Positions 3,566-10,899 of a stretch of DNA of 64,000 nucleotides are shown here, piece after piece. Position 1 is the stretch's first letter, and each line of letters begins with the position of its first letter. The notes under the pieces are model-generated. The model saw only the letters and a program-made list of their open reading frames with translations. It ran no database searches and was not told the origin of the DNA. Position numbers and translations under genes: made by a program. The DNA lies in the NCBI GenBank assembly GCA_030041175.1, contig JASHOK010000006.1:71710-135709 (forward strand), read 5' to 3'. The stretch comes from Thermoplasmata archaeon (lineage in GTDB: Archaea > Thermoplasmatota > Thermoplasmata > Lutacidiplasmatales > UBA184).

Positions 3566-4369
3566 GTGGTTTCCCGAGGGTCGGTCCGAGTGGTCGCTGG
3601 CGATGCGCGCTCGATGGGGAGCGTGGCGTCGGGCTCGGTGGCCCTCGTGGTGACCTCGCCGCCCTATCCCATGATTCCGCAATGGGATCCCCTGTTCGCG
3701 AGCTGGGGGGCGACCGAATTCGAAGAGATGCACCGGGAGCTGGACCGCGTGTGGGCCGAGTGTGCACGAGCGCTGGTTCCCGGCGGTCTCCTGGCCGTCA
3801 ACATCGGGGATGCCCTGCGCAGCCAGGACGGCGAGTTTCAGCTCTGGCCGAACCACGCGCGGGTGATGCAGGCTGCAACCGGACTCGGGCTACGGGCACT
3901 GCCCTACGTCCTGTGGAAAAAGCCGACCAACAAGCCCAACGCCTTCCTCGGTTCCGGCTTTCTGCCCCCCAACGCCTACGTGACGCTGGACTGCGAGTTC
4001 ATTCTGCTGTTCCGGAAAGGGGGACTGCGCCGGTTCCCCTCCGGCTCGGCGGTCCGACGACAGAGCCAGTATCGCAAGGATGAGCGAGATCGCTGGTTCT
4101 CCCAGGTGTGGGAGGGGGTTCGTGGCCGCGCCCAGTCGGCGCACGACGGACGCACGGCCGCCTTCCCCGCGGAGATTCCGTGGAGGCTCATCCGGATGTT
4201 CTCGGTCATCGGCGACACCGTTCTCGACCCGTTCGCGGGCACTGGTACGACGCTCTGGGAAGCGGCCCGCCTGGGTCGGAATGCCATCGGGGTCGAGCTG
4301 GACCCGACCCGGGTCCGAGAGCTTCGCCGGACCAGTGTGCGACTCGCCGGACGCGGTAGCCCATCCTAG
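3566..4369 (+). CDS. Site-specific DNA methyltransferase, beta-class N4-C/N6-A (orphan; no nuclease seen)
   Basis: Catalytic motif IV reads VALVVTSPPYP near the N-terminus. AdoMet motif I reads TVLDPFAGTGTTLWEAARLGRNAIGVELD near the C-terminus. This motif order is typical of the N4/N6 (D12/ParB-less) MTase family. GTG start. Confidence 0.85.
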   Translation: MVSRGSVRVVAGDARSMGSVASGSVALVVTSPPYPMIPQWDPLFASWGATEFEEMHRELDRVWAECARALVPGGLLAVNIGDALRSQDGEFQLWPNHARVMQAATGLGLRALPYVLWKKPTNKPNAFLGSGFLPPNAYVTLDCEFILLFRKGGLRRFPSGSAVRRQSQYRKDERDRWFSQVWEGVRGRAQSAHDGRTAAFPAEIPWRLIRMFSVIGDTVLDPFAGTGTTLWEAARLGRNAIGVELDPTRVRELRRTSVRLAGRGSPS

Positions 4370-4881
4370 AGCTGACGGTGCTGGACCTCTTCCTCGACGG
4401 CACGCAGGAGGTACTTGAGCGACGCGTCCGACAACCGGTCCATGTGCAAGAGGAGATAGTGCAGGTAGATCCGCTCGGGACGGCGGGAAGGGCCGGGCGT
4501 ATGGGGCCGCGTCCCCGGCGTCGGCGGTTCTGGACTGGCGGTCATTTCGTCGAGCGTCGGCTGATGATGCTCGTGGCCGGCCCCGTGGAAGCTTCGGCCG
4601 GTCTCCCCCACCAGGGGTGGATGGATGCGAGCCACCGGGTCCTCCGCGGTCTCGGAGTCTTCCTCCGTCTCCGACATCGTCGCGGCGGACGCGGACAGCC
4701 GCGGAGTTCCCGGACCGGGAGGCGGTGGCACCGCCTTCAGAAAAGGGTGGGCCGGCCGGCTCGGGTCCTGCATCTCCTCGATGGAGCGTCCGGTGACGTC
4801 CTCCACGATATGCCGCAGGTTCCAGGAGTCACGTCGACGGCGTGCCGGTCCCTCCTGGGTCGCGGGAGCGATCTCCGCCAT
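4366..4881 (-). CDS. Hypothetical acidic/Pro-rich protein with C-terminal helix, last gene of the T4SS-like operon
   Basis: 171-aa ORF with high GC3 in the C-terminal helix ERIYLHYLLLHMDRLSDASLKYLLRAVEEEV. It overlaps the tail of the upstream ATPase gene by 53 nt and the stop codon of the convergent MTase by 4 nt. No recognisable domain. Confidence 0.45.
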   Translation of the reverse strand: MAEIAPATQEGPARRRRDSWNLRHIVEDVTGRSIEEMQDPSRPAHPFLKAVPPPPGPGTPRLSASAATMSETEEDSETAEDPVARIHPPLVGETGRSFHGAGHEHHQPTLDEMTASPEPPTPGTRPHTPGPSRRPERIYLHYLLLHMDRLSDASLKYLLRAVEEEVQHRQL

Positions 4882-6593: not shown

Positions 6594-6959
6594 TCAGGGG
6601 AGTACTCCTGCCAGGCGCGACGCTGGCCAAAGACTGGCTGCGACCACCATCAGGGCCCAGACGGTACCTGACGGCGCGAAGACGCCAACCGCAGCGATGC
6701 CCGACCACCCGGCCACGCCGGTCGCCCCTAGCGGTGCGAGGCGCCGGAGGCAGTATCCTGTCTTATGTCGGTTCCGAACCGTGTTCACGGTTCGAATCCA
6801 GACGATCCAAGATACAAGGACCGAGAGACAGAGTACGGCGGGCTGAAGCGCCGGCCACGCGACGGCCCCCGCCGCAGCGAGCACCGTACCCGCGACCGCG
6901 AGCGGCAAGGGATCGAGCTCGCGGGCCGACGCGATGCGGCTTCCGCCCGTCACGGACAT
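6594..6959 (-). CDS. Small integral membrane protein (3-4 predicted helices)
   Basis: 121 aa, with hydrophobic segments LAVAGTVLAAAGAVAWPAL, VLCLSVLVSWIVWI, GWSGIAAVGVFA and WALMVVAASLW. Its stop lies directly adjacent to the ATPase start (6594 vs 6592). Confidence 0.6.
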   Translation of the reverse strand: MSVTGGSRIASARELDPLPLAVAGTVLAAAGAVAWPALQPAVLCLSVLVSWIVWIRTVNTVRNRHKTGYCLRRLAPLGATGVAGWSGIAAVGVFAPSGTVWALMVVAASLWPASRLAGVLP

Positions 6960-6976: not shown

Positions 6977-7684
6977 TCAGGGCAGCCAGTCTCGTTGCAC
7001 GGGCTCCGCCGGCACGCCGAGCCGCTGGAGGGCCTCGAGAAGGCCGAGCGTCGCGGACTCACTGTCCCCGCCGTCCCCGCCTATTCTCAAGTCTACCCTC
7101 CGCCGGAGGCGAGAGCCCACTAGCAACCGTACGAGCTCGCAGTACGAACGCAGGGCTGCATGGTCAGGGTCGCTCGTTCGGCCGGGCGCCGGCAGGTAGG
7201 GGACCGGCGAGAATCGCTCGGTCGTTACCTCGATCGCCACCGGAGCGTCGAGGGCCACCAGCGCCGCCCGCCAGCCTTCGAAGAGCCGTTGCAGTTCCTC
7301 CGGGGGCAGATACGCGACCGGGACGCCCCGCGCCCGGATGCCTCCGCCGGAGCGCCGGGTCAGCCCGCGGCGCGGGGATTTCCGTCCCGGGTCTCCACCC
7401 AGCATCGTGCGGAGCCCGTACCGGCAGTAGCCGAGGGCATACTCGTCCAAGGGCTGTCCTTCCACTCGAACGAAGGCCAAGAGGGCTCCGGCGCCCAGGA
7501 ACGGAAGCCAGACCACGGCCGAACTGGCCGAGGCCACAATGGCACCGACAATGGCGGCGCAGAGGAAGGTGGCAAGATTCCGCCCCGAGTCGAAGGGCCC
7601 CAGGTGGAGCCGTCGTTCCGCGAGCGGAAAGAACGGGATGTCCGCCAGAGGAGGCTCCCGGTCGACCACGGCGGTTCCCCTCAC
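6977..7684 (-). CDS. Membrane-hairpin protein, possibly VirB3/PrgI-like, with a soluble C-terminal domain
   Basis: 235 aa. The N-terminus reads FFPLAERRLHLGPFDSGRNLATFLCAAIVGAIVASASSAVVWLPFLGAGALLAFVRVEGQPLDEYALGY, two adjacent hydrophobic helices as in PrgI/VirB3-type proteins. There is a 4-nt overlap with the upstream gene. The family assignment is an inference. Confidence 0.55.
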   Translation of the reverse strand: MRGTAVVDREPPLADIPFFPLAERRLHLGPFDSGRNLATFLCAAIVGAIVASASSAVVWLPFLGAGALLAFVRVEGQPLDEYALGYCRYGLRTMLGGDPGRKSPRRGLTRRSGGGIRARGVPVAYLPPEELQRLFEGWRAALVALDAPVAIEVTTERFSPVPYLPAPGRTSDPDHAALRSYCELVRLLVGSRLRRRVDLRIGGDGGDSESATLGLLEALQRLGVPAEPVQRDWLP

Positions 7685-8847
7685 CCTCTCCGCGGTCCGG
7701 AGGTTGGCGGTGTGGCCCCGACCCGGGAGGAGTGCCCCGGAACCGGCGGCGTGGGGGCCGGGACAGTTCGTAGATGCCGGGCGAGGTGGCGACTGCCTTC
7801 GATCACCGCGTGTCCGGCGGCGAGGGCTACGCCTCCCGGCAGGGGTGCCTTCCCAAACTGGTTCGCGATGGACCGGACCGAGGAACCGACTTGCGCGGCT
7901 CGTCCCGACGAGGGGACGGCGGACGCCAGTGAATTTGCAGCCCCTTGAGAGGTCAGTGAGGCGACCTCCAGGCCCCGCTGCAGTCCGCCGGTGAGAGTGG
8001 CGCCCGCGGAGGGGAAACCCATGCCTCCAAGTTGCGTCCGCGAGATCGAGATCAGGTAGGGGGTCCCCACTGCGATCGAGAGATAGGCCAACAGAAGGAT
8101 GATCGAAGAGGAGCCCACGGCGAGCTCCAAAGGGACCAGCATCGCCGCCGGGACGAAGGCCAGCTCGACGAGCAGCGTCCAGCCGCGTCGTGCCAGCCCG
8201 GAGAGCGGCGGAAGCGCCCAGAGGAGCGTGAACAGCGGTAGCAGTACGACCAGAACGGCGATCATCGCGTCCCGGAGAGCGACCACCATCGCGAGCGCGA
8301 GGACCATCGAGAACAGGGCGAAACTGACCACGAAGGCGAGGACTCCGTTATCCCAGGAGAACGCGGCACCGCCCGCGGGAAAGAGATTCGTCCACTGACG
8401 CCAAGCCCCCCCGTCGAAGCCCGACAGAAGCCGGAACGTGTCGCCCGAGAGACTGAGAAGGGCGGCCACGAGGGGGATGGTGAAGTTCGCTCCCAGTACC
8501 GCGATGACCAGTCGCGGGAGCAAGGGCTCCAGCCGGGTCCCGACGGTGTACGAGAACGACCGGAGCAAGTAGAGCCCGGCCAGGGCCACGAGCACCAGCG
8601 CGATGCTCGGATCTACGAGATTCGTGACCAGAAAGTCGCTGAAGCGAACCGCAACGGCCAGGAAACCGTTTCCTGCACCCGGGTGGGCCAGTGAAGGGTA
8701 GAGCGAAGGTGCCGACAGCTCCGGAACAACGAGGTTGTCGTACGTCGGCTGAATGATCAGTTCCAGAACTGCGGTACCCGCCGTGAACAGCCCGAACAGG
8801 ATGGCCTGTGCCACGGCATTCCAGTCGATGGAGTTCCAGTCCACCAT
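7681..8847 (-). CDS. Polytopic membrane protein, VirB6/CedA-like candidate
   Basis: 388 aa with about 7-8 long hydrophobic segments (e.g. AQAILFGLFTAGTAVLELII, LVLVALAGLYLL, VIAVLGANFTIPLVAALLSL, AFVVSFALFSMVLALAMVVAL, LVVLLPLFTLLWALPPL, LLVELAFVPAAMLVPLELAV, ILLLAYLSIAVG) followed by a Gly/Ser/Ala-rich soluble tail. The assignment is by position and topology only. Confidence 0.6.
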   Translation of the reverse strand: MVDWNSIDWNAVAQAILFGLFTAGTAVLELIIQPTYDNLVVPELSAPSLYPSLAHPGAGNGFLAVAVRFSDFLVTNLVDPSIALVLVALAGLYLLRSFSYTVGTRLEPLLPRLVIAVLGANFTIPLVAALLSLSGDTFRLLSGFDGGAWRQWTNLFPAGGAAFSWDNGVLAFVVSFALFSMVLALAMVVALRDAMIAVLVVLLPLFTLLWALPPLSGLARRGWTLLVELAFVPAAMLVPLELAVGSSSIILLLAYLSIAVGTPYLISISRTQLGGMGFPSAGATLTGGLQRGLEVASLTSQGAANSLASAVPSSGRAAQVGSSVRSIANQFGKAPLPGGVALAAGHAVIEGSRHLARHLRTVPAPTPPVPGHSSRVGATPPTSGPRRG

Positions 8848-8864: not shown

Positions 8865-9245
8865 TCAGGTGCCGGTCACGACCCAGTTCGCCAGGGCCCA
8901 GATGAGGCCGCTGATCGCGCCGACGAACAGCAGGGTGCCAATCAGCGCGTCTCGGGCCCGTTCCTTCGCCAGGACTTTCTTCATGGAATCGTGAGAGAAC
9001 CAACTGAGCGCGACCCGCGCCCAGACCAACGAGAGCAGCCCTCCTCCCGCGACTGCGGCGAGCGTCACGAGCCGGTTGACGGCGGCGCTGAAGTTCGAGA
9101 CGGCTGGGTTCGTACTCGAGGCCCCACGAAGATCGCTCGGGACGGAGAGCACGTGCACCGGCGCCGCCACCGGCGTCGAAGCCACGGAAAGGACGATCGA
9201 GACCGCAGCGATGGCGAGGAGGGCCACGGAGACGGGAGGCTTCAT
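8865..9245 (-). CDS. Candidate VirB2/TrbC-like (CedA1/TedC-like) pilin
   Basis: I used the internal ATG at 9245, which forms an ATGA overlap with the upstream stop, giving a 126-aa product. It has a signal peptide MKPPVSVALLAIAAVSIVLSVAST. Two hydrophobic helices follow, AVNRLVTLAAVAGGGLLSLVWARVALSWF and ALIGTLLFVGAISGLIWALANWV, joined by the charged loop SHDSMKKVLAKERARD. This is the VirB2 topology. The longer 213-aa ORF in the track is Arg/Gly-rich upstream and overlaps the previous gene. Confidence 0.55.
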   Translation of the reverse strand: MKPPVSVALLAIAAVSIVLSVASTPVAAPVHVLSVPSDLRGASSTNPAVSNFSAAVNRLVTLAAVAGGGLLSLVWARVALSWFSHDSMKKVLAKERARDALIGTLLFVGAISGLIWALANWVVTGT

Positions 9246-10828
9246 CGGCTCGCCCCCGGGGGCTCCGCGCCCTGCCATCGAAGGATCTCGTCGGACCCGG
9301 GCCCAGCCTCCGAGACGACCGAGCCGGCTCGGAGCAGGGCCCGGAGCGCCACCGAAACCGACTCGGCAGACTCGCCCGCTTCCTCGCAGAGCAACAATAG
9401 GGTCTCCCGGTCGATTACGTGCTCCCTCTCGAGGATCGAGCGGACGGTCGGCAGGCCGGAGTGACCCGGGGCCGATTCGAGGGGAGGCTTCCCCCGTCGG
9501 CGCCACTTCAGCAGAAACAGGCCCGCGCCAATGGCGAGCAATAGGGTGAGGGCTCCCACACCAACGGCCGCGGAGGAAACGGTAGCGGATGCTGGAGGAT
9601 CCGGCGCCGGTTCGATGAGGACCTGACGGCTCAGTGTGACAGTGACCCCGAGAGCATCCGTTACCTCGACGTGTTCGACGTAGAGGCCGGGCTCCGGGGG
9701 GTCGAAAACCTGGACGAGAGCCCCCGGGCCGGAGAGAGAACCGTTGGTTTCCTCGCCATCGGACAACGTCGCGCGGTAGATGTAGGGAGGGAGCCCGCCA
9801 GAGACTCCAATCCGCACCTCGATCGCGTCACCCGACACCATCCCTCCGTCCGTGATGTTGACGCCGAGCGGCGGCAGGATCGTGAGCGTCGCGGAGGTGT
9901 TGTCCACAACTCCCAGGCCATCGAGGAGTGAGAGATTGAGCGTCAGCGTACCGGGCTGCAGGAAGGTCAGATTCCGAGCGAAGATTCCATCAGCCGGAAA
10001 GGCCCCAACGGAGGTAGTCCCGGGCGACAGCGGTAGAGAGCTCGACAGCGTCCAGCGGAACGGGGGCGTTCCGTAGGCGACGAGGACGTTCAGAAGGATC
10101 GGCGTACCAACCTCGCCGACCGACGAGGCCGGTAGCATCTGCACCGTCGTTCCCGGTACGACCGTGAACGTCGCCCCGACCGCGGTGGCGTTCACCCCTA
10201 ACGCGTCGCTCACCCGGACGACGATCGACGCGGGACCCGTGCTCGCGAACTCGACGCGTTCCGAGTACTCTCCGTCCTGATAGGCCGTAAAGTTCCCCGA
10301 TACCCCCTCCCCGGAGGCGTTCCAGGTTCCAACAAAGGGCGAAACTCCGCCTTGGAGATCCAGATAGAATGGCACTGGGACGTCGAGCTCGACCTGGCCG
10401 TACGGGAAGGCCACGGAGACCGACGGCGGCGGAACGACCCTGACCGACGCAGTCGCCGTGCCTACGGTCCCCTCGGACGTCTCGACTTGGAGGGTGACTC
10501 CCAGGAGGCCGGGAAGCTGGGCTACTAAGGTCCAGGTAGGTCCCGAGCCGGTAGCCCCCTCGCTATCGATCCACCGAAAGACGTACGGAACCACGGACGG
10601 GACTTGGAGGATCGCGGAGACCTCGAACGGGTGCCCCACATCGGCCGGGTCCGCCGACGCGTGGATGACGACATCGAGGGTTTCGGAAGCCGTCGGGGCC
10701 GTTGCAACCGCGGTCGGTGCCCAAAACAGCAGCAGAAAGACCGGGAGCACCGGGATCAGGACCCACGTCGTCCAGGTCCGCTGAGATCTCCGTCGGTCCC
10801 GAATCCCCGGTCCATGACTCGCCCGCAT
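9242..10828 (-). CDS. Surface protein with about 4 PKD-like repeats, C-terminal TM anchor and a small cytoplasmic helical (wHTH-like) domain
   Basis: The N-terminal TM/signal segment reads WTTWVLIPVLPVFLLLFWAP. Repeated PKD-type motifs are VVPYVFRWI, GGVSPFVGTW, GTPPFRWTL and GGLPPYIYRATL. A TM segment follows (AAVGVGALTLLLAIGAGLFLLKWRRRG), then LPTVRSILEREHVIDRETLLLLCEEAGESAESVSVALRALLRAGSV. Confidence 0.7.
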   Translation of the reverse strand: MRASHGPGIRDRRRSQRTWTTWVLIPVLPVFLLLFWAPTAVATAPTASETLDVVIHASADPADVGHPFEVSAILQVPSVVPYVFRWIDSEGATGSGPTWTLVAQLPGLLGVTLQVETSEGTVGTATASVRVVPPPSVSVAFPYGQVELDVPVPFYLDLQGGVSPFVGTWNASGEGVSGNFTAYQDGEYSERVEFASTGPASIVVRVSDALGVNATAVGATFTVVPGTTVQMLPASSVGEVGTPILLNVLVAYGTPPFRWTLSSSLPLSPGTTSVGAFPADGIFARNLTFLQPGTLTLNLSLLDGLGVVDNTSATLTILPPLGVNITDGGMVSGDAIEVRIGVSGGLPPYIYRATLSDGEETNGSLSGPGALVQVFDPPEPGLYVEHVEVTDALGVTVTLSRQVLIEPAPDPPASATVSSAAVGVGALTLLLAIGAGLFLLKWRRRGKPPLESAPGHSGLPTVRSILEREHVIDRETLLLLCEEAGESAESVSVALRALLRAGSVVSEAGPGSDEILRWQGAEPPGASR

Positions 10829-10899
10829 CGAACCGCCCCGGTGTTCGACCGGGGGCAGGGTATTTTCGCGAAACCGGCCCGATGAACGGTGGAGGGTGC

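What the first reader, a model, noticed from the sequence alone, without database searches (positions are those of the whole stretch)
8865..9245. Candidate VirB2-type pilin hidden inside a longer artefactual ORF
The ORF track offers a 213-aa ORF whose first 87 codons are Arg/Gly/Pro-rich and overlap the upstream gene. An internal ATG at 9245 forms an ATGA overlap with that gene's stop. It yields a 126-aa protein with a signal peptide ending ..SVAST, a TM helix, the loop SHDSMKKVLAKERARD, and a second TM helix. This size and helix-loop-helix design match conjugative pilins. It is easily missed by automated annotation.
Basis: partly seen in the sequence, partly recalled or inferred. Interest (0 to 1): 0.6.

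Follow-up and report, generated by a model that had tools for sequence, protein, structure and literature searches.

The report
Conjugative-type pilin gene, Thermoplasmata archaeon
A small, real and strongly conserved archaeal gene encodes a divergent relative of the pilins of bacterial conjugation machines. It sits in a chromosomal operon with the matching motor ATPase, so it gives a testable candidate for a cell-to-cell DNA-exchange apparatus not yet described in this group of archaea.

Summary
The 213-aa ORF (8865..9506, minus strand) is an artefact. Its first 87 codons have non-coding codon statistics and overlap the true frame of the upstream 528-aa surface protein.

The real gene starts at ATG 9245, which forms an ATGA overlap with the upstream stop. 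It encodes 126 aa: a signal peptide, a variable disordered linker and an 80-residue two-helix hairpin with a basic loop. The hairpin is very strongly conserved: 36 invariant columns in 38 orthologues, and dN/dS 0.06 against a syntenic orthologue.

The protein itself matches no Pfam or NCBIfam model. However, distant members of its family pass the gathering threshold of Pfam PF18895 (T4SS_pilin, the VirB2-like pilins). A profile-profile comparison links the two groups at 98.6% probability.

The operon also holds a clear VirB4 ATPase, a weak PrgI/VirB3-like protein and a polytopic membrane protein. No coupling protein, relaxase or integrase is present. Housekeeping genes flank it.

One copy is present in 34 of 38 genomes of the window's own family. 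One copy is also present in 75 of 81 genomes of a second Thermoplasmata family that appears to include cultured Ferroplasma.

Pilus formation and DNA transport remain untested.

The parts
8865..9245 (-). Gene for the 126-aa VirB2-like (T4SS_pilin-type) protein; the stop codon is 8865-8867
   Evidence: GC3 0.84; 637 homologues; link to PF18895
9180..9245 (-). Residues 1-22, signal-peptide-like segment (MK, hydrophobic core, S-V-A then S). Cleavage is inferred, not shown.
   Evidence: Hydropathy; helix 5-22 in the model; orthologues carry A-x-A-type sites such as ASA/Q and ASA/H at the same place
9108..9179 (-). Residues 23-46, variable Pro/Ser/Thr-rich linker predicted to be disordered
   Evidence: No conserved columns; pLDDT about 50 and no secondary structure
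9087..9095 (-). N51-F-S53, an N-x-S/T sequon just before helix 1
   Evidence: N51 and F52 are invariant and position 53 is S or T in all 38 orthologues; N-x-S/T sits in the same column in 9 of 9 distant members. Glycosylation is an inference.
8985..9107 (-). Residues 47-87, helix 1 (hydrophobic core about residues 59-84)
   Evidence: AlphaFold2 models; hydropathy
8949..8996 (-). Residues 84-99, basic connecting loop SHDSMKKVLAKERARD
   Evidence: S84, D86, K89, K90, A93, R96, A97, R98 and D99 are invariant in 38 orthologues
8874..8969 (-). Residues 93-124, helix 2 (hydrophobic core about residues 99-124)
9246..9506 (-). Artefactual 87-codon 5' extension of the ORF; this DNA really encodes the C-terminal tail of the 528-aa protein in another frame
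   Evidence: GC3 0.575 in this frame against 0.83 in the other frame; not conserved as protein in homologues
9276..9278 (-). Alternative in-frame ATG, 11 codons upstream, giving a 137-aa precursor
   Evidence: Sequence; a 137-aa orthologue call, P0002
9242..10828 (-). First operon gene: a 528-aa surface protein with weak PKD-like repeats, a C-terminal TM helix and a cytoplasmic tail
   Evidence: PKD E 0.004, below threshold; a large surface protein sits at this position in relatives and in the mobile-element versions
7681..8847 (-). 388-aa polytopic membrane protein in the position of VirB6/TrbL
   Evidence: precomputed faint PF19590 TrbL_3 in about 20 of 120 orthologues; my own hmmscan finds nothing, so the assignment is inconclusive
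6977..7684 (-). 235-aa membrane protein, weakly PrgI/VirB3-like
   Evidence: PF12666 E 0.011, 16.7 bits against a cut-off of 27
6594..6959 (-). 121-aa membrane protein, no family found
   Evidence: an orthologue is present in L001
4829..6592 (-). 587-aa VirB4-family ATPase
   Evidence: NCBIfam VirB4-like CD1110 family 9e-32 and TIGR00929 1.8e-16; PDB 4ag5 VirB4 3.3e-15
4366..4881 (-). Last operon gene: 171 aa, mostly low-complexity, conserved C-terminal helix, function unknown

Best explanation
The gene at 8865..9245 (-) encodes the pilin-type (VirB2-class) subunit of a chromosomal machine derived from a type IV secretion system.

Inferred steps:
1. The precursor is inserted through Sec, and its N-terminal signal peptide is removed near residue 22.
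2. This leaves a flexible, variable, probably glycosylated N-terminal tail outside the cell.
3. It also leaves an 80-residue helical hairpin in the membrane, with the basic loop (KK..K.R.R) on the cytoplasmic side.
4. The neighbouring VirB4 ATPase works with the PrgI/VirB3-like protein and the polytopic membrane protein. Together they would extract these subunits from the membrane and polymerise them into a short conduit or an extended pilus. In that structure the basic loop would line the lumen, with lipid bound, as in bacterial conjugative pili and in the archaeal CedA1 and TedC pili.
5. The PKD-repeat surface protein encoded just upstream would provide cell contact.
6. The operon has no relaxase, coupling protein or integrase and is inherited with the chromosome. 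Its most likely job is therefore exchange or uptake of chromosomal DNA between cells, in the manner of the Ced and Ted systems.

Shown here: the gene is real and under strong purifying selection. It belongs by transitive homology to the T4SS_pilin family. It is always next to a VirB4 gene.

Not shown here: cleavage, glycosylation, polymerisation and the nature of the substrate.
For: - Real gene and correct start: codon statistics; 637 homologues, mostly 126 aa; conserved 4-nt overlap and synteny in relatives.
- Conservation pattern typical of a secreted pilin. The leader and linker are unconserved. The 78 C-terminal residues have 36 invariant columns. dN/dS is 0.058 against the L001 orthologue. 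The mature domain is 93% identical to L001, against 44-74% for the other six operon proteins.
- Fold: helix 5-22, a disordered stretch, then a two-helix hairpin. Mean pLDDT is 72.7 for the full-length model and 84.8 for the mature domain alone.
- Family link. Eight of ten diverse family members hit PF18895 T4SS_pilin. Three exceed the gathering score, with 28.0, 28.0 and 32.8 bits against 26.6. One member also touches TrbC (E 0.056) and CagC (E 0.033). All 9 members of alignment A2 hit PF18895 at E<=0.01. hhalign of A1 against A2 gives probability 98.6, E 7e-16, over 74 columns.
- Context: a VirB4 ATPase and a weak PrgI match. The same gene order (large surface protein, pilin, polytopic protein, 209-251-aa protein, VirB4) recurs in relatives and in mobile-element-like contigs that carry an integrase and MazE.
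- Chromosomal fixation. One copy is present in 34 of 38 genomes of the window's family. One copy is present in 75 of 81 genomes, 44 of 46 high-quality genomes and 20 of 20 genera of a second family. The flanks are housekeeping genes. No VirD4-type match reaches the cut-off in this genome.
- Parallel with TedC, which has a cleavable signal peptide, about 15 disordered residues and then the ordered hairpin (PMC9905601).
Against: - The window protein itself matches no Pfam or NCBIfam model, even at E<=10.
- No solved pilin is found by sequence profile.
- Foldseek gives no significant structural match for either model. A two-helix hairpin is too simple a fold to be diagnostic.
- The VirB6 assignment of the neighbouring 388-aa protein rests only on faint precomputed hits and on position.
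- PF18895 is defined from bacteria with a single membrane, where no pilus has yet been seen, so family membership does not prove that a filament forms.
- No expression, proteomic or filament data could be obtained.
- Nothing in the operon touches DNA.
- The chromosomal site is conserved only among the closest genera. It is not conserved in loci L019 and L020 from two other genera of the family.
Confidence: 0.72

Rival explanations
1. It is a VirB2-family membrane subunit of the VirB4-driven translocon, but it forms no extended pilus. It would build only a short channel or stalk in the membrane, as is assumed for the T4SSs of single-membrane bacteria. The machine might secrete proteins or mediate contact rather than move DNA.
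For: The best VirB4 match is to the ICE type of Firmicutes (CD1110 family). PF18895 pilins come from single-membrane bacteria in which a pilus is only conjectured (PMC12857230). No DNA-processing gene lies in the operon.
Against: The two archaeal systems of the same layout that have been solved, Ced and Ted, do make pili (PMC9905601). A long exposed N-terminal linker with a conserved sequon fits a surface-exposed polymer. So do paralogues that fuse 250-aa ectodomains to the hairpin.
Confidence: 0.2
2. The hairpin is a generic two-helix membrane anchor or a small membrane protein of unrelated function, and its resemblance to T4SS pilins is compositional.
For: Hydrophobic hairpins attract spurious profile hits. 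Members also give weak hits to Colicin_V, ABC2_membrane and others. In locus L017 the same domain anchors large ectodomains. Foldseek finds nothing specific.
Against: PF18895 is the only family hit by all 9 distant members, and the only one above its curated threshold. In every locus examined, chromosomal or mobile, the gene lay in the same cluster as a VirB4 gene. Only 34 clusters in 1.84 billion representatives match the profile, so it is not a promiscuous hydrophobic profile.
Confidence: 0.06
3. The full 213-aa ORF, or the 137-aa form starting at ATG 9278, is the true product.
For: The frame is open to 9506. Some orthologues are called at 135-141 aa.
Against: GC3 of the extension is 0.575 against 0.83 for the overlapping frame. 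The extension is not conserved. Most orthologues are 126 aa with the ATGA overlap. The 137-aa form cannot be excluded, but it changes only the n-region of the leader.
Confidence: 0.02

Closest known systems
Pfam PF18895 T4SS_pilin, the VirB2-like pilins used alongside PF04956 to detect pilins in Patescibacteria T4SS loci (PMC12102498)
   Same: A helical hairpin of about 70 residues with a basic loop behind a leader, encoded next to VirB4, VirB3/PrgI-like and VirB6-like genes. Tandem paralogue arrays occur in both groups (locus L017 here, pilin arrays in Patescibacteria). Distant members of the present family pass the Pfam threshold, and hhalign links them to the window's subfamily.
   Different: The window protein and its close orthologues do not reach the model at all. 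The lineage is archaeal, the gene is single-copy and fixed in the chromosome, and the mature domain is unusually invariant.
TedC, pilin of the Ted system of Thermoproteales (Pyrobaculum calidifontis; Beltran et al. 2023, PMC9905601)
   Same: An archaeal, chromosomal, minimal set of pilin, polytopic membrane protein and VirB4-like ATPase. The pilin has a cleavable Sec-type signal peptide, a disordered N-terminal stretch and then a two-helix hairpin.
   Different: No sequence similarity was detected: no PDB pilin chain at E<=10. The phylum differs. The operon here has extra genes (PKD surface protein, PrgI-like, 121-aa and 171-aa proteins) and lacks the ParA, Rad50 and HerA neighbours. There is no structural or functional evidence.
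CedA1, pilin of the Ced DNA-import system of Sulfolobales and Desulfurococcales
   Same: A small two-helix membrane protein encoded with CedA (VirB6-like) and CedB (VirB4-like) in the chromosome. The homologue in locus L016 (apparently Ferroplasma) likewise has no signal peptide in its open frame, as reported for CedA1.
   Different: The window protein has a signal peptide. There is no NCBIfam or other sequence match. UV or DNA-damage regulation is unknown.
TrbC/VirB2 (PF04956) and TraA conjugative pilins of bacteria with two membranes
   Same: Long leader, two hydrophobic helices, basic loop, dependence on VirB4.
   Different: There is no direct HMM match; the only trace is one distant member at E 0.056. 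There is no sign of cyclisation or acetylation partners such as TraF or TraX. The envelope is archaeal, and bound lipids, if any, would be ether lipids.

Membership tests
Pfam PF18895 T4SS_pilin | The protein itself scores at or above the gathering threshold (26.6 bits) | tested here: not met
   P0001 gives no hit even at E<=10
Pfam PF18895 T4SS_pilin | Homology to bona fide members (transitive, profile-profile) | tested here: met
   Family members P0141, P0148 and P0149 score 28.0, 28.0 and 32.8 bits. 9 of 9 members of A2 hit at E<=0.01. hhalign A1 against A2 gives probability 98.6, E 7e-16, 74 columns. The A1 profile finds those members at 3e-9 to 5e-4 in 1.84e9 proteins.
VirB2-class conjugative pilins (general) | Leader followed by two hydrophobic helices joined by a short basic loop | tested here: met
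   loop residues K89, K90, R96 and R98 are invariant
VirB2-class conjugative pilins (general) | Encoded with a VirB4 ATPase and other T4SS membrane parts | tested here: met
   VirB4 is clear. PrgI/VirB3 is weak. VirB6 is inconclusive.
VirB2-class conjugative pilins (general) | Polymerises into a lipid-containing helical filament | not testable with these tools
   Needs filament preparation and cryo-EM, or multimer modelling
Pfam PF04956 TrbC/VirB2 | HMM match | tested here: not met
   No hit for P0001; only P0136 at E 0.056, 14.1 bits against a cut-off of 27.9
TedC (Ted system) | Sequence or structural similarity to the solved TedC pilin | tested here: not met
   Profiles A1, A2 and A3 find no pilin chain in the PDB at E<=10. 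Foldseek returns no significant hit. A direct pairwise superposition could not be run.
TedC (Ted system) | Signal peptidase I-type leader, disordered N-terminus, then hairpin | tested here: met
   compared with the description in PMC9905601. Cleavage itself is not shown.
CedA1 (Ced system) | Sequence match to Ced family models | tested here: not met
   No NCBIfam hit at E<=0.1. That library carries at least one Ced model, CedD, which the ATPase touched at 1.5e-8. I could not verify that a CedA1 model is in the library.
Archaeal type IV pilins (class III signal peptide) | Short basic leader cleaved by PibD/FlaK before a single N-terminal hydrophobic helix | tested here: not met
   By inspection: a Sec-type leader, two C-terminal helices and no prepilin-peptidase motif

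The most novel reading that the evidence does not exclude
This protein is the pilin of a third archaeal chromosomal machine derived from conjugation, after Ced and Ted, and the first outside the Thermoproteota.
- It would have been domesticated from archaeal integrative elements that still carry the same module (loci L021 and L023).
- It would be inherited vertically in several Thermoplasmata families, including the wall-less acidophiles.
- It would build a lipid-bound pilus through which chromosomal DNA is exchanged.
- This could explain the reported (from memory, not checked here) extensive recombination in natural Ferroplasma and Thermoplasmatales populations.
Probability: 0.35. Interest if true: 0.8.

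Novelty: new variant of a known kind. Interest (0 to 1): 0.62.

Why it matters
Pilin-bearing, chromosome-fixed relatives of conjugation machines are described in archaea only for Ced (Sulfolobales and relatives) and Ted (Thermoproteales). The papers I could search name no pilin for Thermoplasmata. [quoted passage not shown]

Recognising that small protein as a VirB2-class pilin does three things. It completes a minimal set of pilin, channel and motor. It extends such systems to a second archaeal phylum. It also points to cultured organisms that carry the homologue, apparently including Ferroplasma acidiphilum, where filaments and DNA exchange can be tested. For soil and peat Thermoplasmata it offers a concrete mechanism for gene flow.

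Tried and rejected
- Direct Pfam and NCBIfam scans of the 126-aa and 213-aa products gave nothing.
- Profile searches of PDB sequences with A1, A2 and A3 gave only chance hits to an ABC permease and a spike protein, at E about 0.4-0.9.
- I tested whether the 388-aa neighbour is VirB6/TrbL. My own hmmscan of 23 orthologues found no TrbL family, and PDB phmmer found nothing. Only faint precomputed PF19590 hits exist.
- I tested whether the pilin is homologous to part of the 388-aa protein, as reported for CedA1 and CedA. The result was not significant: hhalign probability 7.7%.
- I first guessed that the second family (f20) was Methanomethylophilaceae. No McrA is present, so I rejected that.
- The 171-aa protein as an OB-fold DNA binder: only a weak Pfam hit (E 0.033) and nothing in the PDB, so I dropped it.
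- The bacterial promoter and terminator scan was uninformative for an archaeon.

Full report
**1. The observation**

On the minus strand the ORF list gives a 213-aa ORF (8865..9506) and a 528-aa ORF (9242..10828). Translation from 9245 gives the 126-aa protein with the quoted ..SVAST.. and SHDSMKKVLAKERARD.

The 87 upstream codons are rich in Gly, Arg and Pro (18, 15 and 14 of 87). In this 67% GC genome real genes have GC3 of about 0.75-0.84. The 126-aa part has GC3 0.84. The 87-codon extension has GC3 0.575 and GC1 0.85 in its own frame, but 0.83 in the frame of the 528-aa gene. The extension is therefore an artefact of an open frame over another gene's coding region.

A few orthologues are called from there (137-141 aa). 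It would alter only the n-region of the leader.

**2. The gene is real and already called**

The 126-aa sequence finds 637 proteins at E<=0.01, nearly all 124-141 aa long and many labelled 'hypothetical protein [Thermoplasmata archaeon]'. The exact 126-aa sequence is itself in the collection. Gene callers do not miss it; it simply has no name.

An alignment of 38 orthologues shows an unconserved N-terminal 45-50 residues. A block from N51 to G125 follows, with 36 invariant and 10 nearly invariant columns.

Against the syntenic orthologue in L001 the mature domain is 93% identical. The other six operon proteins are 44-74% identical. dN/dS for the domain is 0.058 at dS 0.89. This is strong purifying selection on the C-terminal hairpin and none on the leader.

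**3. Anatomy**

- Hydropathy shows three hydrophobic segments, at residues 3-30, 59-84 and 99-124.
- AlphaFold2 with the alignment gives helix 5-22, no structure for residues 23-46, then helices 47-87 and 93-124 (pLDDT 72.7).
- The mature domain alone gives a clean antiparallel two-helix hairpin (pLDDT 84.8).
- Close orthologues carry canonical A-x-A-type sites (ASA/Q, ASA/H, ATA/H) after the first hydrophobic segment. In the window protein S-V-A then S near residue 22 is the likeliest site. This is an inference, because SignalP was not available.
- An N-F-S/T sequon just before helix 1 is present in all 38 orthologues. An N-x-S/T sequon sits in the same column of 9 distant members. This fits an outward-facing, possibly glycosylated N-terminus.
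- The loop carries invariant K89, K90, R96 and R98, and K94 in at least 90% of orthologues. By the positive-inside rule it would face the cytoplasm in the membrane-embedded form.

**4. What family it belongs to**

The window protein matches no Pfam or NCBIfam model, even at E<=10. A profile of the 38 orthologues searched against 1.84 billion representatives finds only 34 clusters. The family is therefore narrow, and the profile is not a promiscuous hydrophobic one.

Among ten diverse members, eight hit Pfam PF18895 (T4SS_pilin). Three are above the gathering score, at 28.0, 28.0 and 32.8 bits against 26.6. One also touches TrbC/VirB2 (E 0.056) and CagC (E 0.033). All nine sequences of an alignment of those distant members (A2) hit PF18895 at E<=0.01, and no other family is hit by all of them.

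hhalign between the window's subfamily (A1) and A2 gives probability 98.6%, E 7e-16, over 74 columns that span the whole hairpin. So the window protein is a divergent member of the T4SS_pilin superfamily by transitive homology. It does not pass the family's own threshold. PF18895 is the model used, together with PF04956, to find VirB2-like pilins in Patescibacteria (PMC12102498).

Structure searches were uninformative. Foldseek returned nothing for the full model and only non-significant, unrelated helical hairpins for the mature domain. PDB sequence profiles found no pilin.

**5. Context**

The gene is the second of seven tightly packed minus-strand genes. In transcription order they are:
- the 528-aa surface protein with weak PKD repeats;
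- the pilin;
- a 388-aa polytopic membrane protein;
- a 235-aa protein with a weak PrgI/VirB3 match (E 0.011);
- a 121-aa membrane protein;
- a 587-aa ATPase;
- a 171-aa low-complexity protein.

The ATPase is a clear VirB4. It matches the NCBIfam VirB4-like CD1110 family at 9e-32, TIGR00929 at 1.8e-16, and PDB 4ag5 VirB4 at 3.3e-15.

The VirB6 identity of the 388-aa protein is only suggested by position, by topology and by faint precomputed PF19590 (TrbL_3) hits in about 20 of 120 orthologues. My own scans found nothing, so I rate it inconclusive.

No integrase, relaxase or coupling protein lies in or next to the operon, and no VirD4-family match reaches the cut-off anywhere in this 89%-complete genome. 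The flanks are RidA and fibrillarin on one side. On the other side are a DNA methyltransferase and a gene with OMP-decarboxylase-family and RraA-like domains. The same arrangement is kept in a relative whose pilin is 67% identical. In two other genera of the same family the operon is kept but the flanks differ.

**6. Distribution**

- In a sample of 301 genomes of the class, the window-family profile finds one copy in 34 of 38 genomes of the window's own family. It finds none in 4 genomes of the other families of the order.
- A broader profile raises the total to 73 of 301 genomes and 24 of 89 genera, confined to four families. The gene is therefore not class-wide at this sensitivity.
- In the second large family (f20, GC about 37%), 75 of 81 genomes carry exactly one copy. 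That is 44 of 46 high-quality genomes and 20 of 20 genera.
- f20 has no McrA. One member's single contig is 1,826,943 bp, the size published for Ferroplasma acidiphilum Y (PMC5473848). One family member is labelled 'Thermoplasmataceae archaeon'. So f20 is very probably the wall-less acidophilic Thermoplasmatales.
- In f20 the module is reduced to an 85-103-aa pilin-like gene, a polytopic protein, an optional 244-aa protein and a VirB4. In L016 the VirB4 is fused to an N-terminal membrane part.
- In L016 the open frame leaves no room for a signal peptide, recalling unprocessed CedA1.
[quoted passage not shown] It does not call a pilin (PMC5155288). No other paper in the searchable library mentions these arCOGs.
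- The Ced/Ted paper does not mention Thermoplasmata or Euryarchaeota, and the archaeal section of the 2025 T4SS review covers only conjugative plasmids of Sulfolobus and Thermococcus.

**7. Mobile relatives**

The distant, PF18895-positive members lie on contigs with an integrase, MazE antitoxins, a DnaA-like ATPase and a PD-(D/E)XK nuclease. They have the same gene order: large surface protein, pilin, polytopic protein, 209-245-aa protein, VirB4.

In L023 the next gene (407 aa) ends in a second pilin-like hairpin. In genome G013 five tandem genes end in the hairpin. Four of them place a 250-340-aa ectodomain before the hairpin, and in three of these a Gly/Trp-rich linker lies between the two. 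These look like minor or tip pilins that display a domain on the N-terminal, outward-facing end. That fits a polymerising subunit better than an internal channel part.

**8. Mechanism and confidence**

I commit to a VirB2-class pilin-type subunit that the adjacent VirB4 machine extracts from the membrane and assembles. This would most likely be a surface filament or conduit used for cell-to-cell DNA exchange, as in Ced and Ted.

Homology and association with VirB4 are shown. Cleavage, glycosylation, polymerisation, lipid binding and the substrate are inferred. I put about 0.72 on 'T4SS pilin-family subunit working with this VirB4 machine' and about 0.35 on the full reading of a third domesticated DNA-exchange pilus.

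The main rival, at about 0.2, is the same family membership without an extended pilus and possibly without DNA as substrate.

**9. Novelty**

The kind is known: the VirB2-like pilin of a minimal, chromosome-fixed machine derived from a T4SS. This lineage-specific, highly constrained subfamily in Thermoplasmata is not described in the literature I could search.

Earlier notes of this scan on other genomes reached the same reading. They are not independent evidence. The PF18895 link, the distribution counts and the synteny were established here before I read them.

Noticed in passing
L017:6826-11685 (genome G013, single contig of 1,486,778 bp, GC 41%): Five tandem genes end in the pilin-like hairpin. 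One is short (160 aa). Four place a 250-340-aa ectodomain before the hairpin, and in three of these a Gly/Trp-rich linker (GGWWGGGGWSGGGG...) lies between the two. They look like minor or tip pilins that display a domain.
   Followed up: partly
L021:1214-13058 and L023:1033-13745: PF18895-positive relatives of the pilin sit in mobile-element-like contexts: an integrase, MazE, a DnaA-like ATPase and a PD-(D/E)XK nuclease. The gene order matches the chromosomal operon, and a 2183-aa or 784-aa surface protein precedes the pilin. These are probable source elements for the domesticated version.
   Followed up: partly
L023:9365-10588: The 407-aa protein directly after the pilin ends in a second pilin-like hairpin (BLASTP E 1.3e-4 to the window pilin, residues 340-413).
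   Followed up: no
L016:5753-7864 (genome G046, apparently Ferroplasma acidiphilum Y): The VirB4 homologue is a 703-aa protein. Its N-terminal 250 residues form a membrane part, a likely VirB3/PrgI-VirB4 fusion. The pilin-like gene there (85 aa) has no room for a signal peptide in its open frame.
   Followed up: partly
window 9276-9278: An in-frame ATG lies 11 codons upstream of the proposed start. Some orthologues are annotated from the equivalent position (135-141 aa).
   Followed up: partly
window 10860-10875 (minus strand): An A/T-rich element, cgcgAAAATAcc, lies about 30-35 nt upstream of the ATG of the 528-aa gene in an otherwise GC-rich 71-nt spacer. It may be the TATA box for the operon.
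   Followed up: no
window 4366-4881: The last operon gene encodes a 171-aa, largely low-complexity Pro/Glu-rich protein with a conserved C-terminal helix. It is 72% identical in a relative, and no family or PDB match was found.
   Followed up: partly
protein P0131 (226 aa, from the representative search): A relative's gene call fuses the cytoplasmic tail of the PKD surface protein to a degraded pilin sequence. This looks like a frameshift or assembly error, or a pseudogene, at the ATGA junction.
   Followed up: no
window 3566-4369: A DNA methyltransferase gene (N6_N4_Mtase in the relative) is convergent on the end of the operon. It is kept at the same place in a relative (76% identity).
   Followed up: no
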